Source: Azolla caroliniana (taxonomy: Eukaryota > Plantae > Polypodiophyta). From it: a DNA stretch of 28,300 nt. Below the pieces are notes generated by a model, which was not told the DNA's origin, ran no database searches, and saw only the letters and a program-made list of their open reading frames with translations. The stretch is taken from positions 1 to 28,300 of the forward strand of contig JBHGNT010000399.1 in assembly GCA_043228905.1 (NCBI GenBank), read 5' to 3'. Of the stretch, positions 1 to 25,224 are shown one piece after another; position 1 is the first letter of the stretch, and each line of letters starts with the position of its first letter. Both the position numbers and the translations under genes were made by a program.

Positions 1-129
1 AAGCAGTTGGTCCATTGCAGAGAGAGGGGCGCCAGAGAGACCTGTTGGTACTCTTTGGGATGGATGCATTTGCCCTCCATTTACATTAGCCAGAAGTTGA
101 GCAAGCCAGCGTCTAGTCGTTACATCCTC
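1..129 (-). CDS. CNOT9: CNOT9 last visible coding exon ([16 protein letters not shown]...AMDQLL), open to the window edge
   Basis: CAG acceptor at 132-130; conserved ED..TRRWL.QL..NV; no stop before base 1. Confidence 0.92.
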
Positions 130-3100
130 CTGTCACATAAAGCCCATTAAATTAAGTTAATTAAGTTCATGAAGTCAATATCAACTTACCATCAACATAA
201 AAATAACATCTTTGATGATAAAAAGTTATACTCTTAGGCAATTGCTGAAAGTACTGTCTCGTAGCAACTCTGGAAGACAATTTTTTAAAGCCTCACATGC
301 CCTGTAACAAATAAATGTGGCATAAGACTTTCATATATGTCAAAGAATAGTTAGGCATACATGTCTTGTTTAAATAACCTTGGATTATCTGATAGACGAA
401 GATAGCAACGGATGATATGTTTCAACAGCCGAACAGATGGCTGTTCAGCAAGCATTGCAACCATACTTCCTAGGACAGCTCCTACTGCAAAGAACCTCTC
501 AGCTGTGGCACAAATATAAGCTAGTCCAACATCATCTAAAAGTATCTTTTGCACAATAAATGTTGCAACCTGCAAAAGAGATGCCATAACCTCCATTAAT
601 GCAAACAGAAGGAGATAAATATGCAACAAAAAAGTCAGATTGCACTTACTGTTTTTGAGAGTTCACTGCCCATTTCCATAGTGCGAAGACATAAAGGAAT
701 AATCTCAGTGGAGAGAAGAAAATTGATCACATCGGTATCATCAACCTGCCAAATGGACCATCGCAGTGAGTATCTTACTTCCAGCTGTTTTAAAAAACTT
801 TTCCAGACAATGGGAAATCTTTGTTATACCTTAACAAGAGCACCAATAACTCCTAAACTGGTCAGACGAAGATATTCAAAAGGTCTTGTTTTGCTGACAG
901 TATTCAAAAATGGGTAGAGATATAATGGTATGTGTGCTGTCAAAACAAAACAAATATGATAACAATAAGAATTATAAGCACCGTATTTCGGCAGGACGTA
1001 ACACATCAAAATTAAGAAACAACAAAGTATCGTAATCAAGAAACATCACAAATAATGTTATTAGAATCCAGATCAAGCTACCCAGAATCTACATTAAAAA
1101 ATGGCTAACTGCAAATATGTATAAATATTCAGTGTTAAGGTCAAAGGCACTATTGAAGCCCTACAGCAAAATATAAATGAGGTTTTTGCAGTCACATAGG
1201 AGTATGTTTTCATGAATGCGAAACTGAAAACATAATATCAATTATCCAATAACTTTAGATATTGTTTATATGAATCAACAGGAGCCTCAAGTCTGTTGCT
1301 GATTTGCCACATATTTATGTAGGACGTGAAGAATGAGATATGAATAGATGCAGGACCAGTACTGTTTTTTTAGATTTGTTTTTATGGCAACGGTGTCTAG
1401 TGGTGGCAGGATAAGACTCTTTTCATTTCTCTAATGCAGAACTTAAGGGTTGGAATCAGCCACAATCCAAGAATCTAACTGACGCATTACAATTTGCAAA
1501 GAATGCGGACATATAAAAGCACAAAGGCTACCAATTTCGATCATATAAGTTTCAAATTTAGACCAAACTTTCTACTGTTTTTTATTTCAGCAATTACATG
1601 AAGCAATCGACAAAAATGACAATTGTTCTTCCATCAGATGCCAATCATCATGTTTTGTTGCATTCCCTGGGTATGAGCCCAATACATTTGTACATATTTG
1701 CCACAGACTGGTTGAAGTTAAACCATTCACATTGATTGTCATGGTACTGATACCCTCATGACAGGCAAACCTCAGAGTAGGACTGCTTGGAGACCTATCT
1801 CGGTTACTCCTGGAAAACAGCATGTCATAAGGTTTTCCACGATGAGCATATAGATATGAGACTTTTAGATAGTTTCTGTTCCTCAGAGAGCCTTTTTTTG
1901 CCTTAATCATAATACATTTCCCTGAACTCTTCATACATGATCAGGATCATCTCTTGGATTGTGAGATGTGGACTAGAGTGCAATAATCAGGATCATACCC
2001 ATAAAACTTGATTGACGCCGTTACCCACAAGATGCATCACTAAAAAGTGCATTTTCTGAGATTCACGGATGATTCATTTATCATACACCCCAAAAAGCAT
2101 GCTTTATTCCATGTAGTAAATTCAGCACTCAGAGAATTGTATCTGGAGATAGCTTTCCATAATAGATAATATACCGAGGTAAGGGGAGGTTTTCATAGAC
2201 CATAGAGCATTCATGGATGTCAGTAAATGGATGGTAAACAAATGAAATTATCTATTCAGGTACTATTTGGGCATCATCGCAAATAGGATGAATTACCATA
2301 CCAGACATTAAATGTTCTTTATCATGAAATACGCATCATGGTAGAAAGGTTTAAAAAAGCATGCTTTATTCCATGTAGTAAATTCAGCACTCAGAGAATT
2401 GTATCTGGAGATAGCTTTCCATAATAGATAATATACCGAGGTAAGGGGAGGTTTTCATAGACCATAGAGCATTCATGGATGTCAGTAAATGGATGGTAAA
2501 CAAATGAAATTATCTATTCAGGTACTATTTGGGCATCATCGCAAATAGGATGAATTACCATACCAGACATTAAATGTTCTTTATCATGAAATACGCATCA
2601 TGGTAGAAAGGTTTAAAAAAAACTACAGACATGAAATTGCACCTTTAGAACGTAATGTTCTCCACTGAAGGGACATGCGTGAATGAGAATGACTACAAGC
2701 AGTGATAACATGGGGATGTGATCCAATAAAGGCAAGCAGGTATTACCATGCATATTCAATGGTTGTCTGGGGGCTGTCTGGATTGTTCATGAGATGTATC
2801 AGACATATAATATAATATGTACGCTGTAGGTTTATAATCATAATCTTCTAGCTGGCCTTCATTTCGCATACCAAAAGAGCTTTCAGCAATACCATATTTC
2901 AAAAGTTTCTCCTCACATGCCAGCTAGCCCTAGCCTCTCATCATTGGTGGGTGCTGACAATGTCATATAAGACAATGCTAATGTTGCACCCCTGCTTGGA
3001 TTTTGCTATTGTGTTGTTTTTTTCAGATTTCTTCTACTCAACCACTTTTTATCTGAAGGTCTGGAAATTATAACCTTGTCAAAGGCTTTATTAAAGCAAG

Positions 3101-6100
3101 AAAACCAATTCGAAATGCATTTTAAGAGATGTCCCAACTAGCTAGGTGATGGTTACAAACTACCTCCACTTCCTTTATCCATTCTGGTCACGCTACAGTG
3201 TACTCTACATTGCCTTTCTTCACTAAGACTCTATGTTAAGGCATGTTTTAAATTCATGAGATAATACATAAGACAGTTATCATTTATGATTCTTTCAATA
3301 AATTATACTATTTAGTATATAACTGCAAGATTCTGATTTTGCATAAAGCTTCATTCACAATATTTCTAAAACCTGTACTTATGTAGCATATACAACTCAT
3401 TTTATGAAATGTCTGGTTTCCATCAATTTGGATATAAATTGCTAGAAAAGGAAAATGAGTTCTCACCATTTAAAAAAAAAGCTCTTGTTTCTGAATGTGA
3501 TGCTACACACTGGAAAGAAAACATGTGCATGTTCAGAACACAAGCAATAAAGAGATATTTAAAAGAAAAGAAAAATTATATTCAACCTGCAAAAGGGCTA
3601 AAGCATTGCAAACACGATTTGATGCACCTGCAGTTAAAGTTGGTGGTGACAGCATTGGATAGATAGACACTATTTCCTGCAAATGATGTTCAATAAGATG
3701 GTGGTTCTGCAGAATAAATTGATAGAATGTGGCAAAAAATTGCATATGATGAGAGATAACAGCAGATATAATTTAATTATTTGAATGTCCTATAATTCTC
3801 ACAGCTTATTACACAGAATCCACACTACAGTAAAAATGACAAAAGGTAAGGCCGCAAACTGAGCAATATATAAATACCCTGCACATGATGTATACACATG
3901 TGTATATTATTTATTACAACCAGACTTGGTTCCAATATAAAAGCCAAGAATATGCCGAATCATCAATTACCACATCTTGCTTGGAATGTTGGATGTAATC
4001 TACAAAAGAATCAGAAGAGTAAAATTCTTTCATCCGGTTGGGTTGTTGACATAAGAAAATGGTTCAAAAGATGGGGTGTGGATGAACTTTTCGAGCTTTT
4101 GGGTGATGCTATGCATTATGTAATGATTGAGGAAAGGTTGGTGGAATCAGTAAGGATGAAATGGGAAGATGCTAAGAGGACAAAGCTAGAATATTACATT
4201 GCAAATGTCAACCCTGAATGTTGGTCTCAATAACGCAAGAATGCCTATTGATTGTATCCAACCTTATCTCATTACAAATATGAGTAGTAATGCTCGTAGA
4301 GCCCTCACAATAATTCGCACTCAATCTCACAAGTTAGGTATTGAAGTTACATCATGGTATCAAAATGTAACGAATTTAAGGGCATGTAAAGTATGCAATG
4401 AAGGCATGGTAGAGGATGAATGTCACTTGCTCTTCACATGCTTGGCATATAGTGCAATTCATTCAAGATATGATGACATTAAGAGGGAGTGACAACATAA
4501 GTGCCATACTTAAGACACCACCTAGAAGGTTCAATTCATATGTGCATGCCTTATTCATGCATAGAGACATTGTGCTTCAATGTATGAATACCCCTTTTTG
4601 GGAAGGAGACACATATCAAGAACACATGTATACTCTGGTCCCATAGGTCAAAATTGGCCTCTTTATGGACGATAAAAATTCTAATTCTAACAACATCTAA
4701 ATGTCTATTTATGCAGTGACATATGGTAATGCTGATTCACATCTATAAATGCATAAGACAAAACCAATGTGACATTTGGACCAAGAGTAAGCAATTGTTT
4801 ACACCACTATGTCAAGTTGGTCCAACAAAATGTCAAAAGTCCAAACAATTTAAAGAAAACAACAAAAATGCAAGGAATCCCTGATGTGATTATTAGAAGA
4901 CGAAAGACAAGACTTCATCCTCAATCATACTTCACTACTGGACACATTATGAGGTGGAGCTCTAGATTGCTTATATAACAATGAGCTCTATTTGAGAGAT
5001 TGATGAGAAATCATGAGTTGCCAGTACAGAAAGGACACGGAGAGAATGATTTTCTTGGGGAAAATCATGTTTAGAAAAGTGTTGCTTTTCGAAGATTCTG
5101 AAATTAAAATTTGGAAAAACTAAATATATTAACTGAAATTATATGTGTAGAAGAAAAACTAAATATATTAACTGAAATTTGGAAATACCACTTTCCCATT
5201 GCATTAAACCACCGTTCAGTTCTCCAGATGTGAAACAGCCATTTCCTGCTTGTATGGCACACCCAAACTTTTTTCTACGATTTGGCTAGTGGAAATCAGA
5301 ACTACTTCAACAGATTTGCATGTTCTGCTATGTCAAATATGACACATGTCTGCTACCATAGTGCAAATAAATGAAAAAAATACACGTGTCTTTTTCAGAT
5401 TTCTTGTCAAATGATCACTTCATTCTAGATCTTTCTGCAAGAGTTTAATAGTGAGGCCAATTCCATCCTCAATCTATATCATCACCATTCATTGTACATG
5501 TAATATCATAATTTTGAGTGGTGATAATGATTTTGAAGGATTACATCATGCATATGCTCTATGCACAGACTAAAAAACAAGTAAAGGTCAGTTGTATCAT
5601 CAATTCCATTTTCTAAAAAATAAGGTTTAGAGCCCTGTTTTTATTTGTATTCATAAAAAGAAAAACATTAGTAAATTTTCAGCTCCATGTGTTTTTGTTG
5701 ATAGTATCTTTTATTTTTATCTTAACTTGAGAATAATATATTTATCAAAATGGTAGTTTAAAACAGAAAGGTGAAATCTATAAGAAAACCAGGTACATCT
5801 CTAGCAAGCAATTCATATAGAATATAAATGTTCCTTAAGGAATATAATAAAAAGGACAAAGATTGAATGAAAGCAATAAGAAAAGATCAAAACATAGCTA
5901 CATTACCTGTAATAGCGCAGCAATTGTTCCACATGAATGCCATAGCATTGGTGCTAGATCTTGAAAAAGCTCCCGTTTCTGCGTAAAAGCACTTGCTACA
6001 GCAATCAGTGCAAATTGTCACCATACCTCTCCCTCGCATGTTGTATTGTGGCTATACTATAGTAGCAAGCAATGTTTTATTGGGTTCACTTTTTCACTAA

Positions 6101-6531
6101 TTTACTAGACGACCTTGTGATATGCCTGGCTTAAAATCTCATTAATTTACAAGATGACCGTGTAATATACCTGTGGCCAAATCTCACTATTTCCACAAAT
6201 TTAATAGATAAAATTGCACTATACCTGGGTCAAATCTCAATTCTTTCACCAATTCACTAGATGATCTAGAGATATACTTGGGTTCAAATCTCAATGATTT
6301 CACTAATGTATAGATGCCCTTGAGAAATGTATGGGTTGGGTTCATGACCCTATGGGATTTGCTGGAACATCTTAACGACTAAGCTACATCGTCCTGGCAC
6401 GGCCTCTCTCTCTCTCTCTCTCCAATTCGAAACACAAAAACCATACTACTAACCTTGGAGAGATCAAGAAGAGCATTTTCCCGCTGTTCAGGTATGATGA
6501 GCTCCAAGACGAGCTGCTCTGCAGTCGCCAT
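1..6531 (-). CDS. CNOT9: CCR4-NOT transcription complex subunit 9 (RCD1/CAF40), 9 coding exons, 3' end runs off the window
   Basis: Spliced exons 6531-6454, 5978-5907, 3676-3587, 3509-3467, 936-830, 745-650, 569-379, 301-232 and 129-<1 join in phase at GT-AG introns. The product (about 292 aa visible) reads [57 protein letters not shown]...[39 protein letters not shown]...[19 protein letters not shown]..., the hallmark Rcd1 sequence. Confidence 0.97.
232..301 (-). CDS. CNOT9: CNOT9 coding exon 8 ([23 protein letters not shown])
   Basis: 70 nt, completes the split Arg codon, AGA|GTATAA donor. Confidence 0.94.
379..569 (-). CDS. CNOT9: CNOT9 coding exon 7 ([13 protein letters not shown]...[14 protein letters not shown])
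   Basis: 191 nt, AG/GT bounded; lies within ORF 351..629. Confidence 0.96.
650..745 (-). CDS. CNOT9: CNOT9 coding exon 6 ([32 protein letters not shown])
   Basis: 96 nt, CAG acceptor, GTAAGT donor. Confidence 0.96.
830..936 (-). CDS. CNOT9: CNOT9 coding exon 5 ([36 protein letters not shown])
   Basis: 107 nt, AG/GT bounded; lies within ORF 824..1039. Confidence 0.96.
2092..2620. repeat. 262-bp tandem duplication in CNOT9 intron 4
   Basis: GCATGCTTTATTCC at 2097 and 2359, GGTAGAAAGG at 2340 and 2602; copies appear identical; A-runs at the junctions. Confidence 0.95.
3467..3509 (-). CDS. CNOT9: CNOT9 coding exon 4 ([14 protein letters not shown]+G)
   Basis: TTTCCAG acceptor, G|GTGAG donor, 43 nt, phase 1 matches the next exon. 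Confidence 0.94.
3587..3676 (-). CDS. CNOT9: CNOT9 coding exon 3 ([30 protein letters not shown])
   Basis: 90 nt, AG/GT bounded; lies within ORF 3533..3745. Confidence 0.96.
3890..4690 (+). mobile_element. 5'-truncated non-LTR retrotransposon 3' end (RTEX/L2-like, family A), antisense in CNOT9 intron 2
   Basis: ORF 4199..4492 has [11 protein letters not shown]...[19 protein letters not shown] (LINE C-terminal CCHC region); homologous to 24700-25590; ends in a stem-loop and an (ATTCTA)2 tail. 5' boundary approximate. Confidence 0.85.
5907..5978 (-). CDS. CNOT9: CNOT9 coding exon 2 ([24 protein letters not shown])
   Basis: CAG acceptor, CAG|GTAATG donor, 72 nt; missed by the ORF track. Confidence 0.95.
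6088..6325. repeat. Degenerate minisatellite, about 5 copies of a 45-56 bp unit, in CNOT9 intron 1
   Basis: Recurring TTTCACTAATTTACTAGATGACC..TGATATACCTGGG..CAAATCTCA-like units; AAATCTCA occurs four times. Confidence 0.7.
6404..6422. repeat. (CT)9 microsatellite
   Basis: Read directly. Confidence 0.9.
6454..6531 (-). CDS. CNOT9: CNOT9 coding exon 1 ([26 protein letters not shown])
   Basis: ATG at 6531-6529 with an in-frame TAG upstream; donor AAG|GTTAGT at 6453; 78 nt. Confidence 0.9.
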
Positions 6532-6885: not shown

Positions 6886-7386
6886 GTTCTATTGATATTT
6901 GCTTGCCATATCAGAGGAATGAATACACATGCGGGTTTGCTTCTTTTATCAAGATGCCACTCCGATTCACCATCATCCTCATTATAAAAATAAAAATAAA
7001 CGCATGCTTTCCCCACCCCCATCCATGTTGTATTGTGTCTCCTCTCATTTGCCTCCTCTCGAGCTTTCTATTGTTCATCAAACCCAGATTGTGTTCCTCT
7101 TTGGCCTGTTGGCTTGGTGGTTTACATTGTAGCATTGAAATCGTAAAAATTGAAAGAGCTGAATTTCAATCCTTGCCATGGGTTGGGCCCTATCTCATAA
7201 ACCGTACCATGTCTCCTACACAATGTTTACAAGAGTTTCTCCCATGTTGAATTGATGGTAAATTTGATGTTGTGTTTCCTCTCATTTGTAGTTTTTCAAA
7301 AAGGGGAGCCTTCGACTCCAAGCAACCCCCGACTCAAAGGCTCGAGCCCGAAACTCCGTCCAACCTCTACGGTCCTCCATGCTACA

Positions 7387-7877
7387 TGTAAAGAATCGAT
7401 GGTGATTCTTGTGCAACGGAATAGATGTGTGTTATGTGTGTATATGTGTGAGAGAAAAGGAGAGGAGAGAAAAGGGAACACAAGATAGATAAATGAGAGG
7501 AAAATAGAATACTCAAGAAGAAGGTGTATATTTCACAAGTAGAATAAGATTTACAAAATGTAGCATAACAAGGAGTCACAACCGACTTAGTATGAAGTAG
7601 GAGAAGGGTGCTTTATATATAGTCACCCTCTCTCTTCAGTAACTAACTACAACAACCACTCTCTCTTGGGGAATGTGAAGACTCATAGTCATGGGGAATA
7701 TGTAACTCATTAGTTATATTCTATGACACATAGTTAATGTGTAGAGAGTAGTGGTGTGACTCTTGACCTTTGGGTAATCATAGATTCTCAAAAGGTGTGT
7801 TCACTAAACCCTAAACCCTAAACCCTAAACCCTAAACCCTAAACCTTGTTGCACTATGTTGAGCTTGATTCTCAACA
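7387..7877 (-). repeat. Copia 3' LTR (491 bp)
   Basis: Matches 12357-12821 with about 12 substitutions, a 15-bp deletion and a telomeric insertion. Confidence 0.96.
7804..7845 (-). repeat. Interstitial plant telomere tract, (TTTAGGG) x6
   Basis: (CTAAACC)6 on the + strand; absent from the sister LTR. Confidence 0.95.
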
Positions 7878-7889
7878 CGCCCCCTCAAG
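7878..7889 (-). other. Polypurine tract of the copia element
   Basis: Minus strand CTTGAGGGGGCG directly precedes the TG of the 3' LTR. Confidence 0.88.
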
Positions 7890-8007
7890 TTCAACTCGGG
7901 TCGGTTCCTTTCAATTGATTTCCCCTTCGGTTGGTATCCGGTTTGGACGATCTCCGGTATCTGCTTCAGCTCGTACCCGGTTCAGACGGTATCTGGTTCT
8001 CGCTTGT

Positions 8008-11000
8008 ACTCCCCCTCAAGCTTGGCAAGTCAGGGATTGTCAATCCAAGGTCTGGCATGAATTGCCGAAGCTTGTTGGCTCCTAGGGCCTTGGGAAGATG
8101 TCGGTTGTCTGAAGATTCGTGTTGATGTGTAGAAGATTGACATCTTCGGCCTGAACACGCTCTCGAATGAAGTGGTAGTGCACTTCAATATGGTTTGTGC
8201 GTGCGTGGAATAATGGGTTCCGAGCCAGATATATATTGCTCATGTTGTCGCAGTAAATGGGTGTCGGATCCTTGATGGGAACGCCCAGATCCTTCAAAAT
8301 CCTCTTGAACCATACGACTTCACATGCAGCTACGACGATGCCCCTGTATTCGGCCTCCGTACTCGAAAGTGCGACGGTAGGCTGCTTCTTACTACTCCAA
8401 GATATTGCTCCGCTACCGAGCGAGAAGACAAATCCGGAGGTCGATCGTTGATCAACTCTGTAGTCGGCCCAATTGGCATCCGTGTACCCTTCGAGTCGAA
8501 TTGGTGTGGCTGATGTGTAGAGGATGTCGTAGTCCATTGTGCCACTCGCGTATCGTAATGCTCGTTTAGCACAATCGAAATGGATATCGCGCGAAGTGTG
8601 CATGAATTGGCTAATGAGGCCGACCGGATAGTTGAGGTCGGGTCGAGTGATCGTGAGATAGATGAGGCTCCCGATCAATTGTCGATATTGAGTTGGCTCG
8701 CACTCGCCTGTGCTGGAGTCGACATCTAGGTTGAGGTTTCGATCGAGAGGGGCTGCCACAGATTTGCACTCAGCCGTCCCGAACTTGTATAATAAGTTGA
8801 GAATGTAGTGTCGTTGAGAGTTCATAATGCTGGTTGGAATACGAATTACTTCGATGCCTAGGAAGTAATGAAGTTCCTTCATGTCCGTCATCTCGAATTT
8901 GTTGGAGAGGAGGGACTTCACCTTGTTGATGTCGACTAAATGCTCACCTCCAATCACCAGATCATCCATGTATAGGATGATGACAATCGAGCTTCTAGAG
9001 TTGTTTCGTACGTAGAGGGAGTTGTCAGATTTTGACATTCAAAAGCCGATTTGATGAAGATATTGCGTAATCTTGGAATGCCAAGCACGCAGTGCTTGCT
9101 TGAGGCAATGGAGTGGCTTCTTGAGTTGGCATACGACTTTCGGATGAATGTTGGATTCGAAGCCGGGTGGTTGTACCATGTACACCTCCTCTTCTAATTC
9201 TCCTTGAAGAAAGGCGTTCTTTACGTCCATCTGATGGAGGTGCCACCCTTTCGCCGATGCGAGTGGAATTACGGTCCAGATAGTCGTTATCTTTGCCCCC
9301 GAGGCAAATGTTTCTTCATAGACGACTCCATGGAGCTTTGTAGCGGTTTACAGAGCCGTCAGCATTATACTTCACCTTGTAGATCTTGTGCGGTGAGTGG
9401 GGAACGGAATCCCATGTTTTGTTCTTGCAAAGTGCCTGTATCTCCTTGTTCATTGCTTCGACCCATCACGGGTCCTTCACGGCTTTGGAAAAGGTTTCTA
9501 GCTCCCGTACTATTGCTACCTTCATCATAAAGGCGTAATGGTACACTATATAATCATTGTAGCCGAATCGGCTTACGGGGTTCTTTTCACAGGTGGATCA
9601 GCGGAGCTTCTCGTTTGTGGATACTAAGGGTTTCTTCACTCCATTTGTCCGGATGTCAAGGCCTTCGAACTCACTATCGAGAGAGTGAGTCGATTCTTTG
9701 CCGTCGAAGTGATCGTCTTCATACTTCGGCATTTTCGCCTTCCCTTTGTCTAGCTTCAGACTCAGCCGAGATGTGCTTTGACCACTCGGGGCACTTGTGG
9801 CCCACTAAGCCTTGTCGTAATTGGGCTTTCTTCGAACATGCGTGTGAGCCGATCTTCAGCTTCTATCTCTATTTCGGCGGATTCCAGGTCGAGCGGAATC
9901 AAAGTTGAAGTTGTCTCTGGTGCTACCAAGATGCGGACTCGTCGAAAATGACGTCTCGACTTACTTGAGATTTTCGAGTTGAGGGGTTATATCACTTGTA
10001 CCCCTTTTGCTCCAGTGAGTATCCTACGAGGATACATTTCTCCGACTTCGGGTCAAGCTTTTGGCGCTTCTTGTTGGGGATGTGCACGTATGCAATAGAG
10101 CCAAATATCTAAACATGTGATAGGTTCGGTTTCTTTCCAAAAAACTCCTTGTGCGGAGTAAGTTTGTGCACACCCGATGTCGTACACCGATTCATGAGGT
10201 ATACAACTGTGTTAACCGCTTCTACCCAGTACGACTTTGGCATGTGCTTTTCGTTCATCATGGCCCGTGCTACTTCAAGGATGTGCCGATTCTTTCATTC
10301 GACCACTCCGTTTTGTTGTGGCGTATGTCGACACGAAAACTCTCACTGAATTCCTTCTTTCCGTAGATATGCCATAAACTCATTCAAGAAATATTCCTTG
10401 CCTCCATCTGATCGAAGGCATCGTACATGTCGGCCCGTGGCTTTCTCGACTTCATTCTTAAATTTTTGGAAGTGTCCGAACAGTTCTCTCTTTTGTCGCA
10501 TGGGGTAGATCCAAGTGTGCTTGGAGAAGTCATCGATGAAGGTCACGTAGTATCGGCATCCGCCGAATGTAGTCGTCTGAGTCGGACCCCATACATTGGA
10601 ATGAATTACGTCGAGTACGCCTTTGCTCACGTTCCTCTCCTTAAAAAATGGGTGCCAATGTTGCTTGCCGAATTGGCAAGCGGCACACACACCTTCAATC
10701 TCTTTCTCCTTTAATGTCGGGAGCCCGATGACGATTCCTTTTGATTGCATTGCCTTGAGCTTTTGGAGGTTGTTATGGCCAATCTGCTTGTGCCATAACT
10801 CTATGTCGGAATCGGCTTTCGTGCCCTTTGCGAACATGGCCGATTTCATCTCGTGCAAGTCGAGAATGAACATTCGGCCCTTTCTTTGTCTGTGAGCGAT
10901 GAGTCGGCCTTCTTTTTCGATGAAGCAACCGCCTTGATTAAATCATACTTGCATCCCTTGCTCAACAATTTGGCCGACGGAGACCCAATTCTTCGTAATG

Positions 11001-12189
11001 GTTGATACATGCAAGACATTTTTAATAAAAGTTTGGTTACCTTCTTTGCCGAATGGGATATTGCAGATATGTCGAATCGGATGTGTAGTGTCGTCTCCGG
11101 TTTCGACATAGTCGAGTCGTTCCGGCTCTCGAATTTCTCGGAACCATTCTTGATGAGACGTCATATGGTTTGAGGCACCGTAGTCGATGAGCCATACGTC
11201 TTTCGGACCGAAGGCACTAGTTGAAGTAGAAGCTGACATAGAATTTGCTCTATGTCTCATCATGAACATTCCTCCACAATCGTCATAGTCGGAGTTGGTG
11301 GCGTAATTGGTGAGTTGTTGGCTAGTGGAAGCCGAGTCGCGCATCTTCTTACGACACTCTTCTTCGTGGTGACCGATTTTTCCACAATATCCGCATTCGA
11401 CCAAGTTTTGTTGGCTCGGACTGGAATGGTGGCTCCCCCTTCTTCCGAAGGTTCCTCGATGGCCTCCATCTTGTTGTCGTAATTGAGAGTTGTTTTCATA
11501 ACTCGGGCCTCGTCCGCCTCATCCTTGGCCGAATCGGCCTCTTCTTGCACGGTCGCGTCCTCTTCCTCCATCCGATGCGTGTAGAGCATGTGGCCTTCCG
11601 AGGCATTGCTCCTTGTTTGAACATGATTCTCTTTGACCAACAACATGGATTGAAGATCGAAGAAAGAGGGAGGATTCTCCCATGCTAGTACGATGGTCCT
11701 CATCGCGCCGAACCGTGGTGCAAGGCCGCCGAGGCATATTTGCACCATCTCATCGTCATTCACATTCACGCTTATCGAGCCGAGCGAGCCGCAAAGCTCC
11801 TTGATCTTCAAGGTGTAGCTCGTGATGGACATATCCTTTTGTTGGATGTTGTTCAACTCTTGGTGGAGTTGAAGCTTTCTCGCGATTGTGTTGGCGGCGA
11901 AAATCTTTCATAGATTCTCCCACGCTTCCTTTGGCGTCTCGGCTTCTTGAATGTAGCCAAGCATGCGGTCGTGAACACATGTGGCCAAGCAATACATCAC
12001 TCAGCTTGCCGCTTGCTCCCACGTTGCATAGTCGGCGTCTTTCGGGTCGGGTCGGTTTTCTTGTGCTCCTTTGATGTAACCCCAATAGCCTTGGCCGACA
12101 AGGTATTGGTGCATCTTGTACTCCCAAGATGCAAAGTTGTTTCGATCTAGCTTCTCGCTAGGGAGAGCACTCCCGATTTGAGTATTCAT
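8008..12189 (-). pseudogene. Disrupted copia gag-pol polyprotein
   Basis: Gag (EKLDRNNFASWEYKM), zinc knuckle CGYCGKIGHHEEEC, protease WLIDYGASNHMT, integrase VIHSNVWGP and RSDGGKEY, RT MDVKNAFLQG and LYMDDL, RNase H GYTDANW and STEAEY. Many stops, frameshifts and small deletions. Confidence 0.95.
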
Positions 12190-12344
12190 TGTCGATGAAG
12201 CTTCCTTTCTTCTTTTCCTTCTCTCTCGAACACGAGCTATGTAATGGTACTATGATAGCGATGAGTCGGTTCTTCTTGAACATCGGCGTAGAGCACAACA
12301 CATGATCACGATGAGGTGAGTGGGGTAGATGGAGCTACCAAATC

Positions 12345-12356
12345 GCTCTGATACCA
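12345..12356 (-). other. Primer-binding site complementary to the tRNA-iMet 3' end
   Basis: Minus strand TGGTATCAGAGC directly after the CA of the 5' LTR. Confidence 0.95.
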
Positions 12357-12821
12357 TGTAAAGAATCGATGGTGATTCTTGTGCAGCGGAATAGATATGC
12401 GTTATGTGTGTATATGTGTGAGAGAAAAGGAGAGGAGAGAAAAGGGAACTCAAGATAGATAAATGAGAGGAAAATAGAATACTCAAGAAGAAGGTGTATA
12501 TTTCACAAGTAGAATAAGATTTACAAAATGTAGCATAACAAGGAGTCACAACCGACTTAGTATGAAGTAGGAGAAGGGTGTTTTATATATAATCACCCTC
12601 TCTCTTCATTAACTAACTACAACAACCACTCTCTCTTGGGGAATGTGAAGACTCTTAGTCATGGGGAATATGTAACTCATTAGTTATGTGTCATAGAATA
12701 TGATTCTATAACACATAATTAACGTGTAGAGAGTAGTGGTGTGACTCTTGACCTTTGAGTAATCATAGATTCTCAAAAGGTGTGTTCACACGTTGCACTA
12801 TGTTGAGCTTGATTCTCAACA
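12357..12821 (-). repeat. Copia 5' LTR (465 bp)
   Basis: TG...CA ends, adjacent PBS, TSD outside. Confidence 0.96.
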
Positions 12822-14031
12822 CTACACTTGCAATTGACGTTGATTGAGGTCACCTCGCCATGTCACCCAAGCCAATCTTTCCTTCTCACATACTTATATA
12901 TATATATATAATTAAAAATAATAAATTGATAAATTAAATAAAATAAAGATTGAGATGTATACAAACAAGTTAATTGCAAACACAAGTGTTCACTCTTGTG
13001 TGTTCATACATACAGAGGGTTTTGTACACATCGAGAGTTCAAGAGAAAAATCATATTGATTCCTCAAATCAAACTGAAAGTGAATATCAACATACATGAG
13101 GTCCTTAATGTCAATGACTCAGCCAATCACATCCTCTTTGGTTCAAGTCCCCGATGATCTCACTCACTTTTCACATAGACGGGCATTATTTTCGCATATA
13201 CATTGAAGTTTCTTACCAATAATACACGTTTTGTTAAAAAAATGCCATAGAAATACAAATTTGGTGTAGTGGCATTCTTACAAATTAATTATTTAAGATA
13301 TTTCAATACAACACAAAAGGAAAAAATGTTTTCAATTAATTTTGCGATGCAAATTGTTTTTCATAATCACCAGGATGTTACTCGATGCTTCCTTTTCCAC
13401 AACCTAAGTCAACTCTATAGTAAGATGAAATCCACTTGAAAGATATATGGTATGGCATATTATTATAATTTCACAAGTTCACCTTCATTATTAAAGTTTC
13501 AATTTCATTCATTAGATTCTTAACTGGCATTAATTGATTATTCCAATCATTTTAAGAGGAAGATTTTCAAGCCTGACACCTTGAGAAAGATTCTATTTGA
13601 AATTACTGTCAATAATAAACTTTGTCAATTTGATGTTTCGTAATGTTCACACATATCTTGTGGCAATAATGTGCTCCTGGTTTTAGACAACATCAAACCA
13701 ACCAATAAAACAAGACAATTAAGCATTTCATCAAGTTATTATTGTACATCGCAAATTGACAAGATGATGAGTTGTAGTCCACAATCCCTCATTTGTACTA
13801 GATGTCAACCCATTACTATCACACATTACTATCTTGTCCATATATAGCATTGTAACTTTTTACATTATTTCAACATTCCTCAAAATAATTATCATGGCAC
13901 CTCATATGATAGTTATGCATGATAGCGAAATGGCAAACATGCTTGCTAGGCTAGTCTTGAGCATACACAATAATGCTTGGTAGTGACATCCATACAACTA
14001 TAGTAGCATTATGTATTTAAGGAGGCTCGAA

Positions 14032-14911
14032 GGTTGTGAAACCATCTCATTCTACTATCATGTTTGTAGATTTAAGGATTGGTGTAAAAGTAAGAAATAC
14101 CAAATTTATAATTATGAATTATTATAGGCCTTATATATTTAAAGCCACATGTGTAAATCGAGGGAATTATTGGCCTAAATTTTAATATGGCCTAGAAGGC
14201 TTTCGAAACTTCTACAAAAGCCTAGAAACATCTCAACCACTCTAATGAGGATTGTGAATAGCCTATAAAAACCACTTTTGGGTTGGGTTGGGTTGGGTTG
14301 GGGGGGGGGGGGGAGTAGCAATCGAACAATGAAAGGAATCAAGGAATGAAGTGAAAAAGCAAGCAATAGCATTAGGGAACAAGAGCGTCAAGTGAGGAGT
14401 AAAAAGAATAATAATATACAAGAAGATACAGATAAGAGAGAACAATAGGAAGAAATAAAAATTAACAGTAGCAAGTAAATGAAGATAATAATAGTGTATC
14501 ATAAGATCTTTTGTTCCTCAAACAATGAATGAGAGTTCAAGTTCTCTCCCTACACATATAAGGAGAGGTATAAGTTAAGTCATTTTATATACTTCAAAAA
14601 ATTAAAGTTCTATTGTTTAAGTCACGTAAATTGATCAGGTTTAGGCACTGATGAGCTCTACCTAGAGTGAAACTAGTTTGCACAAGGTCTTTCTAATGAA
14701 AATTTCTTAAGCTTTTCTTTTTTTCTCACTCACTCTTCTCTTCTTCTTTCATCTCATTCTCTCATTCTCTTTTACTCTTGTTCACCTCTAATCCTACTCA
14801 CCTTAGTTTCACTTGCATCATTGCTTTATTTCTTTTCTTACTCTTCCCATATCATCTCAATAGTTGTGCTAGTTCGCTCGCACTCCTTGTCACGACGCTA
14901 TGGTCACAACA
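14032..14911 (+). mobile_element. Solo-LTR-like non-coding element (gypsy or retrozyme-like); boundaries uncertain
   Basis: CTAGAA/CTTC motif cluster (14191-14228) like the one in the gypsy LTR at 23330-23370; TATA box CTATAAAA near 14263; imperfect inverted ends GGTTGTGA / TCACAACA. No TSD found. Confidence 0.45.
14641..14696 (+). ncRNA. Candidate (partly degenerate) type I hammerhead ribozyme
   Basis: TTAGGCA-CTGATGA-GCTCT(ACCT)AGAGT-GAAAC...GGTC-TTTCTAA: exact CUGAUGA and GAAAC core boxes around a 5-bp stem II, a GUC site, and imperfect stems I and III. Confidence 0.6.
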
Positions 14912-15573
14912 AAATATGTAGTTTTCACTTTATACTCTTTGGCATTTATTTTGCATAATCTTGTGCTCTTTCCCCTAACCATCTCCTTTACTTCTACGAT
15001 CTCCCCTTCAATAAAATCTCGGAGATTCAACATAGCAATCGTGACCTTCGAAATAATGCCATATACCTCATACTTCTTGAGCGACGATCAATTGCCATTG
15101 AATCATGGTTATGGAAAGGGTTGTTGAATACATGCTAAACAAGCAAAAAGGTTGGTCTGAAAGAGTTTTTTATGTTCCACCTAGATGCAAAATATAAAAA
15201 AATGGTTTGGAAGATAGGATATAGCACATGTGCTTTTTTGTGAGTTACATTCACGAAACATGGCAAAGACAAGGGAGGGGTATTTTTGTGAGTTTCATTA
15301 AACATGACAAAGACAAGGGAGTGGTATGTTTGTGAAATTCAAACTTTCACAGTGTTTTATCCATATATTTTATCTCACATGTCCAATTTAATCATGTAAG
15401 TATCCAACATGACCATCGTGATTTCTAGATTTAGAACACACAAAAGCAATCACACTACCATGATGTTGTAATGAATTTCCCTTTAACAATGGAAAATGCA
15501 AAAACACAAAAAAAAAGATATGGAAAATTGGTTGTCTTAAAGAAACAATGTTCATGCAATGACAATGTTTGGT

Positions 15574-16160
15574 GAGAGAGAGAGAGAGAGAGAGAGATTT
15601 TAGTATCGTCTTCCGAGGTTATATATGGCCCATGAGATAAAAAATATAACATATTCATATAATACATGTGAAAGTGAGTGGTGACTCTTGATGTTTAAAA
15701 TTTTACTAATGAAGGTTACAATTGATAGTGTGTGATTGTGAGAGAAATTTGTGCAGGGATTGCATTTGGTTGAAGATGTATGGAAAACATAATCGAATGT
15801 GATCAAAGATAGAGCATTGTATCGAAGTGCGATACTCAGACTCTCAAACTTGTTTAACATGAAATGCACATAGTCAACTACTCTCACCACTTACGCCCCC
15901 ACACCTCATCTCAAATTGTAGTGAGTGTGAGCTAAGTCATATGGAAACAATGCTTTGGATGGCACGAAACAATATGAACTCTAACATGTGTTGCAATGTG
16001 TGGTTTACTCATTGAATGAAGAATATGGCTTTGTAGTTAGGTGCAACATATGCAATATAATGTGTGAAGTTTGAGCCTCCAAATTTCCCCATGTCGTGAT
16101 ACATTGGTGTTGCGAAAAGGCATCATTCATAGAGGAATTAATTGATTCTTGTTTAAGAGA
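15574..16160 (-). mobile_element. 5'-truncated LINE 3' end (family B) with a (CT)12 tail
   Basis: Reverse-complement homologue of 20760-21337 (ORF 15600..15890 aligns with ORF 20961..21209); (GA)12 at 15574-15597 is the tail. Confidence 0.88.
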
Positions 16161-16769
16161 GGGGCGCAAGAGACAAAAAATAGGGGAACTCAAAGAGGGA
16201 GAGGAGTAATAAAGGACCATATTCTAAATATTGGTCATAGAAATTAGAGATAGTGTCAACAATGATTGAAAGGGAATCAAAGGTTGTTGATGATGTATCG
16301 AAAAAATTGGTGGAAACTCACATTATTTGCCCATCGAAAGAATGAAGTACATGCTTGTAATGAGAGGGAACTCATGCATAAATATTTGAAAGAGGGGTTA
16401 CTTGCTATGAAGAAAATTGCATTGCAAATTCAAGAGTATAAACCAAAATGACAATCTTAAAAGCCAAGAAAGAATCGTTAATCAAAGCAAATGTTGAAAT
16501 GAAGTCTAAACTTGAGGCAAAATAAGATGCAATCATTATGAAATGGAGAGACGTTCTCAATAAGAAGATGCCAAAGGAAAATGTTTAATGAAGTTAACTT
16601 GAATCCACTTCAAAGGATGCATTGATGCCAAATAACTATATGAAAGAGAGAAAAGGAAGTAAACGATTGTCATTATAGGGATGCAAGAAGAGGAACCTGA
16701 GAAATCACTCTCCCTCACTAGAAATATCATGAATTGTTTTGACAATCTTTGTGCTTTACATGAATTTTT

Positions 16770-17065
16770 GGTTAAGAATCAACAACGGTTCAATTTCGAC
16801 TTAACTGGTTTGAGAGTTTTCAAACTTGAGACAAATCGGTTCCTAAACCAGTTGCCAAACTTGTTTAGGAGCCAATTTAGCCAAACTTATTAGCCTTAAT
16901 CGGTTTGAGAAACGGTTAGCCCAAAATGGTTCAGTGGGCTTGAGCCATCCCAAACCGAGGGCAAACCGATTAAGGAAGCTTAAGCTTGAACTAAACCGAA
17001 CTGATATGTCAAACCGTTTAAAAACAGATTAATGCCTCAGTTCAGGCTTGAGGCGAGTCATTGTT
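16770..17065. mobile_element. CGGTT/AACCG-rich non-autonomous DNA-transposon-like insertion
   Basis: GGTT motifs on the left switch to AACC motifs on the right; terminal hairpin GCCTCA...TGAGGC; splits the ORF1 remnant. Confidence 0.5.
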
Positions 17066-17150
17066 TACTCCTATTTATGGTATATGGAACACATTGAGTT
17101 GGTCGAAAGAGGTTAGAAGGAGAATCATGTTGAGGGATTATTTGTACAAC

Positions 17151-17438
17151 CTTAGATGATAAGAAAAAGAGTTAAGAGTTTTAGATAGTAGCAAGGTGTA
17201 CCTAAAAGGTATAAATTTTGTTGTAGTAGAAGATCAAACCCTGAAGGAGAAAGACCAAAGAAGGCAAGCCTATGTAGCTAGAAAAGCAGCTCAACTTAGA
17301 TGATAAGAAAAAGAGTTAAGAGTTATAGATAGTAGCAATGTGTACCTAAAATGTATAAATTTTGTTGTAGTAAAAGATCGAACCCCGAAGGAGAAAGACC
17401 AAAGAAGGCAAGCCTATGTAGCTAGAAAAGCAGCTCAA
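17151..17438. repeat. 144-bp tandem duplication
   Basis: CTTAGATGATAAG at 17151 and 17295; about 6 substitutions between copies. Confidence 0.93.
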
Positions 17439-17629
17439 AATGCGTAGCAAGCGATGACCTATAAGACTACATAAGTTTGAAAATCATATTTTGGAATTGT
17501 TGACAATATCCATGGAATAAAGATTTGGGATTAAGTCATGTCGCTAACAGTATTGGTATTATATTTTTTGTTGAAATGATATTGTAGTCGGGCCAGATAA
17601 TTGTTAAACACTCTCAAGCCCTAACCTCA

Positions 17630-18161
17630 TGTTATGAGCATAACTGTAACCATATTTATGGGCTAATTTGTAAGGATGAAGGGTGAGGATTGAGTTATCT
17701 CAATCCTACAATGGGGGATAACTTTAGAGTGTTTCATCACTTGGCTACTTTTTATACAAAACAACCAAGTGTGAAACATACAAGGGCCTAAGGTTTGAGC
17801 CTATATAAGAAGGCTAACTACCTTCATAAAGGGGGATCTCTTTTCTTTATTGTTTGAGACAGAGACTCTGATAGTGTGGCAAAACTCTAGCTTCATACAT
17901 GTGTGCCTCCTTTAGCTATGATCCATGTTTGTACACAATGGTATGTGACATTGGCAGGGGACTGAGACCTGTCTCCCACCTTTGTTAAGGGGTGGTTGGA
18001 TGGACTGACCATTCATCCTTATTTCCTTCTTAAATTTTGCATATCATTAATTAAGATTCTAATAGATGAAGTATCTCCACTGTAAGATTGAGATAACTTA
18101 ATCTTCGCCCTTCATCCTTATGAATTAGCCCACAACAACGGTTACAATTATGCTCATAACA
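17630..18161 (+). mobile_element. 532-bp TG...CA element with about 90-bp terminal inverted repeats (solo LTR or MITE)
   Basis: TGTTATGAGCATAA...TTATGCTCATAACA; 70 of the first 81 positions complementary; flanks CCTCA/TCTCA; internal CCTATATAAG near 17799. Confidence 0.85.
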
Positions 18162-18789
18162 TCTCAGTTACCCTAATCATACGAACTCTTGCTCACCCTT
18201 CACTAAGACAATTCTAATTAAGAAATCAACTAATGGCTTACAAAGAAGAACATCACACATAGGAATTGGTTATGTTTTTGTTTAAGCCAAAGCAAACCAC
18301 AAACAAATGTGGCACAACAATTTAACTAATTCGGTTTATTTCTACTCTATTTAGATATAGAAATTTGTAAAATGGCTTGGTTTGGCTTGGGGCCTAGGTG
18401 TTCAGTAAGTTTGGTTTGACCATTTATTGGATTGATGGTTTACAATTATACCATGCCATCTTCAAATCATAGTTTAAATAGTTGAATGGTTTAGGGTTAT
18501 GACATTTTTGAAATATTTACTAAATTTATGAATTAACTTTATTAAACTAAGAGTTATAGCATATCAAACATAATAAGTTATAACATTTGAGGTCCAATAT
18601 TTTCATTTTTTCTAAGTTTATATACACACGACTTTTGGTTGGAAAACTCTTTGTTAAATAATTGTGCCAAAGTTAACATATAATATGTTTAGCACTAATA
18701 CATACCTCTTGGTTTGAACAATGTCAATTTAAATGTTTTGTGATTTGGTTTAGGGTTATGATGATATGTGACCTGGCAACGTTCTCTCT

Positions 18790-19500
18790 CTTCATGGTTG
18801 AGGTTTTGTGACTTCTCCAACACTGTTAATTGCCACAAAAGAAGTCCTTTTAACTTTACAACATATTTCCTCACTAACTTGCAAATAAAAAGTGAAGGCA
18901 TTCCGTATATTCCAATTGAACCATAGCCCCCAAAACCTCATGAACTCAAAAATAATTTGGAAATGAGACGTCAACTCATTATTCTCCATATGTGAAAAAC
19001 CCCAACTAATGAAGATAGTCTTACACTATTTAAAAACATCCACACTAAATTGATACATCTTCAAACCATTCTAGCCATCGAGCATGAAAGAAATCGATGC
19101 CTACTATGTTCCAACTCCATGGAACAAAAGAAACACATTCCTCTAACAATGTTTCCCTTGTTTAATGCACCCCCCAATGCTAAAGCTCCAACCATAACCC
19201 GCCAAATGATTATTGCAGATCGTAGCATCAATCGAGAACACTAACATGCCTTGATTACATGAAACCACCAACTAATGGGCTTACAAGAACCCTTTCTTCC
19301 ATCCGCTTAGGTTTGTCAATCAACTTGTGATAGACATCATTTGTTGAGATCATAGTCAATCTCCTATTTCCAACAAATGTCCAATCAAGCTCTTGAGATC
19401 CCCCATCTAAATTAGGAATTGGGTCATACAATGATAATAATCATTGCAACTTATCTCAAGTAAAGGTGTATAACCTCTTGGAATATGAAATGTTGATCAT
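18790..19500 (-). mobile_element. L1-clade LINE 3' fragment (zf-RVT region)
   Basis: Minus-strand translation IIWRVMVGALALGGAL...GMCFFCSMELEHSRHRFLSCSMARMV (19138-19082) followed by WGLWFNWNIRNAFTF (ORF 18792..18989). Boundaries approximate. Confidence 0.8.
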
Positions 19501-19537
19501 GTTGTTCAAAAGGCCATTAATCTTCTCTCTCTCTCTC

Positions 19538-21337
19538 ATGGCAAAACTATTTGGATGTATAATGGAATCAAAGATAAGTGCATGAGATGAAAAAAAGAGA
19601 TAAGAGAGCTTATGGACCAACTGGCTTTCGAAAACACCATAGCACCATTGATCACCTTGTCGCCCTTCGAGTATTAATGGAGGAAAGTCGTCTTAGAGGT
19701 AAAGGTTTATATTATTGCTTCGTAGACTTCAAGAAAGCTTTTGATATGGTACCTCGTGAGCATCTTTGGAGGTGAATGGAAGAACTCGAGGTGTCAATAA
19801 TATATGCTTGCAATTTCCTGAATATATGAGAATGTTATATGTTGTGTGCATATGAGAGATAAACTTTTAGATTTGTTGGTGTTAAGCATGGATGCCCACT
19901 ATCACCAACTCTATTTGGCCTATGCATTGATGAATTGGAAGAAATGGTTGCCACATTTGTAAAGGAAGAATGTGTTGAAGAATTTGCCATTGGGAATGTT
20001 GTCATTATGCTTTTGCTATATGCAAATGATGTAGTGTTTTTTGCAAATACTTTAGGAGATGCACAAAAACTTTTGAAGGCATTGGAATTTTTTGCATGCA
20101 TACTAAATTAAGTGACAATCGGTCTAAAACAAAGATTATGCTTGTGAAGAGGCCCCAAAAAGATAAACCATGCATTATATACAATAATGAGCCACTTGAA
20201 TGTGAGAAAAGCTTCAAATAACTTGGCCTTGAAGTTCCTTCAAATTATAGATGGAATGAATGCGCTACATGCCGCTTAGAAGCGGGGAAGCGAGCATATT
20301 ATGCATTTGAGAACACATGCAATCATGGAGATATTGTATTGAGTCCTCAAGATATACCTTTTTGACACTTTCGTGACACTAGGGCTTCTCTATGGGGTGG
20401 TAGCATCCCTAAATCTACTTGGAAAGAGTTTAAAAATGTTCAAATATATTCTTACAAAGTTCTACAAGTTAACAAACAAACATCATACAATATATTCTTA
20501 CAAAGTTCTACAAGTAAAGAAACAAACATCATACACCCTCCTCCCCCTCCTCCTTGAGACAAGATCACTTCCCATTGCGATCATAGCCATGGAAAGGTTT
20601 ATTGAATACATGGTTAAGATTCAAAAAAATCCCTCACATCAACTACCTATAATTGCATGGGAAGCAAGCAAAAAGATCCAAAAGATGCTTAAAAGAAAAA
20701 TTTGTGTTCCAGTTGGATGCAAGATATGAAAAAATGGCTTGGTAGATGGGATGCAATGCACTTGCTTCATGATGCATCACTAAATACCTTTGTAAATGAG
20801 GTCTTTTTGCAATGCCAATGTATCATGGCATGGGACAAATGTGGACTCGGCTCATTGTCTACACATTATACTACACATGTTGCACCTAACTACAAAACCA
20901 TATTCTTCAGGGAACAAGGAAACCATACACATCAATACATGTTAGAGCCCATCTTGTTATTTGTCATTTGAACCATTGCTTCCATGCGACTTAGCTCACA
21001 TGCATTGCGATGTGAGAGGGGGCATTGGGGCACAAGAGATGAGAGTGGTCGACTATGCACACTTTGTCCAAAACAAGTTGGAGAGTTTGAGTATCACACT
21101 TCGATACAATGCTCTGCCTTTGATCATATTCGGTCATGCTTTCCACACATCTTTAACCAAGCTCAATCCTTGCACGAATTTCTCTCACAACCACAATCTG
21201 CACTCTTGATTGCAACATTCATCGGTAAAGTTCTTGAACATTGAGAGTCGCTACTCACTTTCACATGTATCACGTGAAATGTAATATTTCTGGTCTCATA
21301 GTTCATATTTGACCTCCAAAGGCGATAATAGAAACTC
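19538..21337 (+). mobile_element. 5'-truncated RTEX/L2-like LINE (family B), degenerate RT plus C-terminal zinc finger
   Basis: GFRKHHSTIDHL, FVDFKKAFDMVPR, GVKHGCPLSPTLF, LLYANDVVF (YADD-like), and RLSSHALRCE...CTLC...EFEYH...C. Confidence 0.92.
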
Positions 21338-24370: not shown

Positions 24371-25224
24371 GCTACGAGTCTAGACTTCAAGCAGGTTGGA
24401 ATAGTTATTATATGTTTGAGAATCAATGCAACCAAAGTGATGCTCGACTCTCGAGGATGGGAAGTGAGATTGACGTTATTCAATGCTATGGTGGTTCAAG
24501 TGTTGCTTTATGGAGTATAAGTGTGGGGTTTTACTATCTCACTTAGTGCTTGGAATGAAATAGAGACAAACCAAAAATTCTTCTTACATTGGAAAATTGG
24601 GGAAATAATCCTCAACGTCCTACCTTGTCAAGCTATTATAAATAAGTGCTTAGCCCAAAGAGGTACTAGTCATTCAAAGAGTATAACAATATATCACAAA
24701 AGTCAAGAGTAAGTTTGATCATAGATTTCCAAAAACAAGTTTGGAACATAGGATGCAAGGTAACAAAATCATATGAGGAAAATCCTCTTATCTAGTTGAG
24801 TGCTTGACATTGTAAAATGATTTAAGAGATGGGGAGTAAAAGATCTATTAGAGCTCCCATGTGAGACTATGAAGTATGTTATCATCAATGATATATTACT
24901 AATGGCACTAAAGATGAAGTGGCAAGGTGCTAAAATTTCAAATTTGGAATAGTATATTGCAATTATTAACCCCAAATGTTGGCCCCAATACAAGGACAAA
25001 TTGCTTGGACATATCCAATCACATCTCTCTATCCCCATGAGCCTTCAAGTTGGCTCTAGGAGAGCCTTACCACTTCCACAAACACACTCAAACAAGTTAG
25101 GTGTTGAGGTAGAGTCATGGCATCATCATCACAGAAATGTGATGATATTCAAGGTATCCAATGAAAACCTAACAATGAAGGATGAATATCACTTGTTTAT
25201 GACATGCTCAAATGTATAAGGTAA

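What the first reader, a model, noticed from the sequence alone, without database searches (positions are those of the whole stretch)
7804..7847. Telomere repeats written into only one LTR: a likely telomerase-patched break with a built-in ancestral control
Seen: the 5' LTR reads TTCAC-AC-GTTGCAC (12785-12798); the 3' LTR reads TTCAC-(TAAACCC)5 TAAACCTT-GTTGCAC. Two bases are replaced by 43 nt of near-perfect telomere repeat, with no TSD and a 1-nt in-register microhomology. Established: LTRs are identical at insertion, and short interstitial telomeric tracts are attributed to telomerase or telomeric filler at double-strand breaks. Inference: a post-insertion repair event whose pre-break sequence is preserved. 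It also creates a telo-box (AAACCCTA) array 1.3 kb upstream of CNOT9.
Basis: partly seen in the sequence, partly recalled or inferred. Interest (0 to 1): 0.7.

Follow-up and report, generated by a model that had tools for sequence, protein, structure and literature searches.

The report
Telomere-repeat repair scar in one LTR
One of the two end repeats of a dead jumping gene in a fern-like plant carries 43 letters of chromosome-end (telomere) repeat where its twin has two ordinary letters, likely a scar left when a DNA break was patched with telomere repeats, a kind of scar already well described in mammals.

Summary
A degenerate Ty1/Copia element (7387-12821, minus strand, matching 5-bp TSD) has LTRs 2.7% apart. 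Only the 3' LTR carries 43 nt of Arabidopsis-type telomere repeat, in place of 2 nt. Contigs from four runs under three species labels show the empty state is abundant in this high-copy family, so gain is the likely direction. Best reading: a short interstitial telomeric sequence (s-ITS) from post-insertion break repair, probably telomerase plus end-joining. Three corrections. The 1-nt microhomology lies at the rejoining junction, not the priming junction, so it does not support telomerase. The 5' LTR is the more mutated copy (7 of 12 differences). A telo-box role on CNOT9 is unsupported, because the tract is 1,274 nt from the ATG inside a decaying LTR. One new hint: both tract ends fit the 9-nt Arabidopsis telomerase template; the fern template was not available. 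Read support is untested. Using a repeat as the ancestral control was done in primates in 2007. The scan noted similar scars in rotifer genomes and one alga, none at this locus. A clean plant example of a known kind.

The parts
7805..7847 (-). 43-nt Arabidopsis-type telomere-repeat insert, G-rich on the element's sense (minus) strand, one mismatch at 7846; replaces 2 nt; lies 30 nt into U3 of the 3' LTR
7804..7804 (.). Single base shared by LTR flank and repeat register (equals 12789); it is at the distal, rejoining junction of the G-rich strand
7387..7877 (-). 3' LTR, 491 nt, TG..CA ends; carries the insert and a 15-nt deletion after 7717
12357..12821 (-). 5' LTR, 465 nt; empty at the site (12790-12791); 12 substitutions against the 3' LTR in 450 columns
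12680..12722 (.). Hairpin with 20-nt arms in the 5' LTR (-10.0 kcal/mol); 15 nt of it (12688-12702) are missing in the 3' LTR, about 87 nt from the tract
7382..7386 (.). Target-site duplication, left copy
12822..12826 (.). Target-site duplication, right copy, identical to the left
12339..12356 (-). Primer-binding site next to the 5' LTR (initiator-Met type; label recalled)
7878..7890 (-). Short polypurine tract next to the 3' LTR
8082..12157 (-). Broken Ty1/Copia gag-protease-integrase-RT region (Retrotran_gag_2, Pol_BBD, gag_pre-integrs, rve, RVT_2); 41-54 stops per frame, longest open stretch 318 aa
7612..7621 (-). TATA-like motif of the 3' LTR, about 185 nt downstream of the tract on the element strand and pointing towards CNOT9 (function inferred)
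1..6531 (-). CNOT9/Rcd1 gene, ATG at 6531, about nine exons matched, running off the left end of the window

Best explanation
The 3' LTR of a dead Copia element carries 43 nt of telomere repeat in place of 2 nt, likely written in after the element had integrated, when a double-strand break was likely extended by telomerase and then rejoined by end-joining. Shown: the asymmetry between the LTRs, the 2-nt loss, no duplication, one insertion event (TSD), and an abundant empty state in the family. Inferred steps: (1) a break 30 nt into U3; (2) loss of 2 nt; (3) telomerase extends the 3' end that faces the PPT side, one full template pass plus five further rounds, without an in-register primer; (4) the new G-rich end pairs by one base with the other end, is filled in and ligated; (5) one later C-to-T change in the tract. 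It is most likely a neutral scar no older than the element (K2P 0.027; about 1-3 Myr under recalled plant rates).
For: The tract is in one LTR only, with collinear flanks and an identical TSD. The site is in U3, which both daughter LTRs copy from one parental sequence (established retrotransposon biology), so an inherited tract would be in both. The empty LTR site has no telomere seed, and the motif occurs nowhere else in the element. laid 10,784 contigs from four runs: none of the 10 indel rows at 3% or more lies at the site, and 7 of 32 listed pieces cross it with only 0-12 gap letters (3 of 32 under the tool's 31-letter rule). Deletion without TSD is the top junction class in rodent and primate s-ITS and in horse (30%). 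Tract plus shared base is 9 + 5x7 nt: it begins at the 3' end and stops at the 5' boundary of the 9-nt Arabidopsis template given in PMC6765143. That is about 1 in 49 by arithmetic, but post hoc. One mismatch in 43 nt fits the element's age (0.59 expected).
Against: There are no in-register bases at the priming junction, whereas about 75% of informative mammalian loci have at least one. No non-template telomerase RNA sequence is present. The template fit uses an angiosperm template, needs the one mismatch read as a later change, and counts an ambiguous shared base. A fern template was not found (supplement unreadable). Read support is missing. The laying tool drops some records by filter, so tract-bearing contigs could be hidden and their absence proves nothing. 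Two of the 32 pieces (X2 record 23, X11 record 14) stop within 4 nt of the site with 27 and 19 unlaid letters that were not shown. In human tumours telomere insertions are commonest in ATRX/DAXX-mutant (ALT-type) samples, so telomerase is not required.
Confidence: 0.55

Rival explanations
1. Same post-insertion break, but the filler is a captured or copied piece of existing telomeric DNA (a free fragment ligated in, or synthesis templated from a telomere), with no telomerase at the break.
For: No in-register primer bases. PMC2246262 names capture of telomeric sequence as the alternative to telomerase. Telomere insertions are most frequent in ALT-type tumours.
Against: Both ends fit the 9-nt template phase, which capture would give only by chance. 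The tract is short and has no variant repeats except one base.
Confidence: 0.29
2. The tract was added during retrotransposition or by another reverse transcriptase: telomerase extended a stalled plus strand 30 nt into the 3' LTR of the cDNA before integration, or a telomere-associated Penelope-like RT primed on the break and copied only its C-rich repeats.
For: The tract is in the 3' LTR, G-rich on the plus strand and 30 nt from the PPT, as the cDNA route predicts. Penelope-like elements with C-rich repeats at the RNA 3' end are known, including in Selaginella. An unreviewed scan note reports such elements in this genome.
Against: LTR and strand each match by chance half the time. No Penelope sequence adjoins the tract. 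Reverse transcription is mainly in cytoplasmic particles (recalled). The same LTR has a second, unrelated indel, so post-insertion damage happens here.
Confidence: 0.07
3. Assembly or base-calling artefact.
For: No read evidence was obtained. The window also has a 100% identical 262-nt tandem duplication.
Against: Both flanks stay collinear with the twin LTR to within 2 nt and the TSD matches, unlike a misjoin at a chromosome end. The tract has a decay-type mismatch.
Confidence: 0.05
4. The tract arose in another family copy or a rare subfamily and reached this LTR by gene conversion, or the 5' LTR lost it.
For: The family is very abundant, and filtered records could hide a tract-bearing subfamily. 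The 3' LTR has two indels within 90 nt.
Against: The empty state is abundant under three species labels. Both LTRs share letters that differ from the family majority at 12445, 12520, 12537, 12570 and 12574, so they are true twins there. Precise loss leaving 2 non-telomeric bases is unparsimonious.
Confidence: 0.04

Closest known systems
Short interstitial telomeric sequences (s-ITS) of primates, rodents and horse (PMC2246262, PMC7215372; passages read)
   Same: One-step insertion of a few near-perfect telomere units at an internal site; small deletion at the junction; no TSD; empty ancestral state recoverable. For 16 primate loci it was recovered from the consensus of the host repeat.
   Different: Plant 7-nt repeat; the control is the twin LTR of the same insertion, which also bounds the age; no in-register bases at the priming end; no telomerase-RNA (TERC-ITS) sequence.
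Plant telo-boxes and the telomerase-plus-recombination model for their spread (PMC3022908; passages read), and TRB-bound telo-boxes (PMC12616469; passages read)
   Same: Same motif; the proposed origin is telomerase acting on a free 3' end followed by error-prone repair.
   Different: That model adds a single unit near an active promoter, and the motifs peak at -50..0 from the TSS. This is six units inside an LTR, 1,274 nt from the ATG.
Somatic telomere insertions in cancer genomes (PMC7002710; passages read)
   Same: Telomere repeats at non-telomeric breakpoints, attributed to end-joining or microhomology-mediated repair.
   Different: 98% of those are one-sided and they are enriched in ALT-type tumours. 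This one is closed on both sides and present in an assembled plant genome.
Interstitial telomeres and MoTeR relics of Pyricularia (PMC8381367; passages read)
   Same: Short internal telomere tracts associated with transposons.
   Different: Those come from telomere-targeting elements or internalised chromosome ends with rearranged flanks. Here the flanks are collinear and the host is an ordinary Copia.

Membership tests
Short ITS inserted at a repaired break | At least four telomere units with no more than one mismatch per unit (criterion in PMC7215372) | tested here: met
   6.0 copies, one mismatch in 43 nt
Short ITS inserted at a repaired break | Internal position with collinear flanks on both sides | tested here: met
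   Flanks match the twin LTR on both sides; same TSD
Short ITS inserted at a repaired break | Empty ancestral state exists and lacks a repeat seed | tested here: met
   5' LTR is empty; 7 of 32 listed family pieces cross the site without the insert
Short ITS inserted at a repaired break | End-joining-type junction change (none, deletion, addition or duplication) | tested here: met
   2-nt deletion, no duplication; deletion class about 50% in mammals
Short ITS inserted at a repaired break | Sequence confirmed by reads across both junctions | not testable with these tools
Telomerase-made ITS (subclass) | In-register bases at the priming 3' end (about 75% of mammalian loci, not obligatory) | tested here: not met
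   0 bases at 7847/7848; the shared base is at the other junction
Telomerase-made ITS (subclass) | Tract ends fit the species' telomerase RNA template | tested here: inconclusive
   Fits the 9-nt Arabidopsis template at both ends; fern template not found
TERC-ITS | Non-template telomerase RNA sequence inserted with the repeats | tested here: not met
   The insert is repeat only, apart from one mismatch
Promoter telo-box | 8-nt telo-box motif present | tested here: met
   Five overlapping copies in the tract
Promoter telo-box | Position close to the TSS, with site II or TEF motifs | tested here: inconclusive
   1,274 nt from the CNOT9 ATG; TSS not mapped; one site II motif near 7184; the known peak is -50..0
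Promoter telo-box | TRB binding and effect on expression or H3K27me3 | not testable with these tools
   Needs chromatin and expression data
Ty1/Copia LTR retrotransposon (host element) | Paired TG..CA LTRs, 5-bp TSD, PBS, PPT | tested here: met
Ty1/Copia LTR retrotransposon (host element) | Domain order gag, protease, integrase, RT | tested here: met
   Pfam hits in that order on the minus strand
Telomere-fusion relic | Head-to-head arrays or unrelated subtelomeric flanks | tested here: not met
   Single orientation, collinear LTR flanks
Telomere-associated Penelope-like insertion | Element sequence joined to the repeats | tested here: not met
   No extra sequence between the tract and the LTR flanks

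The most novel reading that the evidence does not exclude
Telomerase extended the retrotransposon's own cDNA before integration: the plus strand stalled 30 nt into the 3' LTR, received one template pass plus five rounds, and synthesis resumed. The tract would then record telomerase acting on a transposition intermediate rather than on a chromosome break. This predicts that, genome-wide, such tracts sit mainly in 3' LTRs, G-rich on the sense strand and near the PPT.
Probability: 0.05. Interest if true: 0.7.

Novelty: new member of a known kind. Interest (0 to 1): 0.27.

Why it matters
Base-level evidence that telomere repeats get written into internal breaks comes, in the papers I read, from mammals. 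For plants I found a model but no resolved LTR-pair case in four targeted searches. The library lacks most subscription papers, so this is not proof of absence. One locus proves little. The useful part is the method: twin LTRs give the empty state and an age bound within one assembly. Scanning all intact elements in LTR-rich plant genomes would give a rate per base per million years, and end phases that test telomerase against capture. A regulatory effect on CNOT9 is possible but unsupported.

Tried and rejected
No whole genome is held, so no all-copy alignment and no search for the telomerase RNA gene was possible. Laying contigs over the 3' LTR region gave no result; read support stays open. 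In one search the flank beyond 12843 had no cover in X1, X2 and X3; the tool says a hole proves nothing, so presence of this insertion in those samples is unknown. No RNA holder was listed, so there is no evidence on expression or TSS. The fern telomerase template was not found: main-text passages of PMC8287931 and PMC12133305 gave none and the supplement of PMC8287931 was too large to read; it may bear on the template claim. Three papers were not held, so plant de novo telomere register and Penelope priming rest on recall or on the review. Searches (0 papers; listings only, apart from papers cited by passage) gave no plant LTR-pair case. Rfam on 12250-28300 and ARAGORN on 7900-28300 found nothing. 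Scan look-ups near the locus and by LTR sequence were empty. Rejected: slippage from a local seed (no seed); telomere fusion (one orientation); a recombinant of two elements (same TSD); the 1-nt match as evidence (wrong junction, 1 in 4 by chance). The 7-versus-3 mutation asymmetry between LTRs, where the 3 assumes the family matches the 5' LTR at sites whose rows were not shown, is not significant (p 0.34).

Full report
Observation. The tract occupies 7805-7847: 43 nt of Arabidopsis-type 7-nt telomere repeat with one mismatch, at 7846. Tandem Repeats Finder reports 6.0 copies of period 7 at 7804-7845, the only such array among 20 rows. The flanks match the other LTR without gaps up to 7804/12789 and from 7848/12792, so 2 nt are replaced and nothing is duplicated. 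Composition predicts about 4e-16 runs of five or more copies in the window. Outside the tract the 7-nt motif occurs only as single copies, at 18490, 18749 and 20407.

Host element. It spans 7387-12821 (5,435 nt) on the minus strand, with TG..CA LTRs, the same 5-bp TSD on both sides, a PBS beside the right LTR and a PPT beside the left. Pfam gives gag, protease-region, integrase and RT matches in Copia order. The coding region has 41-54 stops per frame. The LTRs differ at 12 of 450 columns (9 transitions, 3 transversions; K2P 0.027), with a Poisson range of 0.014-0.047. That is about 1 Myr at 1.3e-8 or 2.8 Myr at 4.8e-9 per site per year; both rates are recalled, not measured. The neighbouring gene is CNOT9/Rcd1. 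Five relatives map about nine exons from an ATG at 6531, and the fern protein P0007 is the closest of the five in two short exons (89% and 94%). That agrees with unreviewed scan notes calling the genome a fern.

Direction of change. I laid public contigs on the empty LTR instead (4 of the 20 runs listed; 10,784 records; three species labels). The family is very abundant. None of the 10 indel rows at 3% or more lies at 12789-12792. Of 32 listed pieces (10,821 more were not shown), 7 cross the site with 0-12 gap letters in total, and 3 of these meet the tool's 31-letter rule. Summed depth at 12792 is 0.53-0.76 of that at 12778, with no collapse, though the tool warns that depth is not copy number. 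Against: two pieces stop within 4 nt of the site with 27 and 19 unlaid letters not shown, a third contig simply ends at 12789, and the tool's filter could hide tract-bearing contigs. So the positive result counts (the empty state is abundant in all four runs), and the absence of tract rows does not. Retrotransposon biology points the same way: the site is 30 nt into U3, which both LTRs copy from one template, so a parental tract would be in both.

The control is not pristine. At 7 of the 12 LTR differences the family majority matches the 3' LTR, 1 is split, and 4 are not among the 40 rows shown (53 hidden). The 3' LTR also lacks 15 nt of a 20-bp-arm hairpin (-10.0 kcal/mol), and no such deletion row appears in the family. 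It has therefore probably had two indels within 90 nt.

Junctions. The G-rich strand runs along the element's sense strand, so a telomerase would have primed at the 7847/7848 junction. In PMC2246262 (passages read) the telomerase signature is in-register bases at that priming end, seen in about 75% of informative loci against at most 25% expected. Here there are none. A different hint favours telomerase. Tract plus shared base is 9 + 5x7 nt, starting at the 3' end and ending at the 5' boundary of the 9-nt Arabidopsis template with its 2-nt anchor (PMC6765143, passages read). By arithmetic this is about 1 in 49 if both phases are random. It is post hoc, treats the mismatch as later decay (0.59 changes expected), and assumes the fern template is the same, which I could not check.

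Mechanism. Most likely (0.55): a break after integration, loss of 2 nt, extension by telomerase, then end-joining. Capture or copying of telomeric DNA at the same break is the main rival (0.29); PMC2246262 names it, and telomere insertions are commonest in ALT-type tumours (PMC7002710, passages read). Together these give about 0.84 for a post-insertion repair scar. Addition at the cDNA stage or by a Penelope-like RT (0.07; review PMC12477314, passages read; scan note), artefact (0.05; reads untested) and conversion from a rare subfamily (0.04) remain.

Function. The tract makes five overlapping telo-box motifs. It lies 1,274 nt from the CNOT9 ATG, and telo-boxes peak at -50..0 from the TSS in moss (PMC12616469, passages read). 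It sits in an LTR decaying mostly by transitions, which suggests methylation (inference). If it acts at all, the nearer target is the LTR's own TATA-like motif about 185 nt away, which points towards CNOT9 (inferred). Nothing here shows an effect.

Comparison and novelty. It meets four tested features of a short ITS made at a repaired break. It does not show the priming microhomology or telomerase-RNA sequence that mark the telomerase-made subclass. Deletion junctions are the commonest class (about 50%; 30% in PMC7215372, passages read), and 16 primate loci were already read against the host repeat's consensus. A telomerase origin for short plant motifs was proposed in PMC3022908 (passages read). 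PMC6410037 and PMC8381367 (passages read) add background only. Searches showed no plant twin-LTR case, within a library that lacks most subscription journals. The scan has noted similar scars in rotifers and an alga (unchecked). Verdict: real, a new member of a known kind, interest 0.27. The value lies in the genome-wide twin-LTR test it suggests.

Noticed in passing
window 7717/7718 versus 12688-12702: The 3' LTR lacks 15 nt of a 43-nt hairpin that the 5' LTR keeps; no such deletion row at 3% or more in the family. A second likely repair or hairpin-deletion scar 87 nt from the tract.
   Followed up: yes
window 2092-2620: Perfect tandem duplication of 262 nt (100% identical, 5 nt overhang) inside a CNOT9 intron: a very recent duplication or an assembly artefact.
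   Followed up: partly
window 26004-26238, 17151-17438, 20432-20535, 15250-15337, 5114-5179: Several further short tandem duplications (78x3, 144x2, 46x2, 44x2, 39-nt spacing), suggesting frequent local duplication.
   Followed up: no
window 15654-16077 and 20849-21278: Two diverged copies (78-82%) of an unclassified repeat in inverted orientation, about 5 kb apart; no BLAST match to the Copia LTR.
   Followed up: partly
window 17629-17714 and 18077-18162: 86-nt inverted repeat pair (86%) 362 nt apart, MITE-like by shape only.
   Followed up: no
window 23467-24147 and 3889-4492: Broken frames that resemble, from recall, a Ty3/Gypsy protease-RT start and a LINE tail (the latter inside a CNOT9 intron); no Pfam hit at 0.001.
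   Followed up: partly
runs X1, X2, X3 laid on window 12250-12885: Single-contig joints shared between runs, for example 12699 back to 12656 in three runs and 12367 to 12802 in two, show other rearranged LTR copies, several at the hairpin.
   Followed up: no
window 6094-6307: Degenerate 45-53 nt tandem repeats in the first CNOT9 intron.
   Followed up: no
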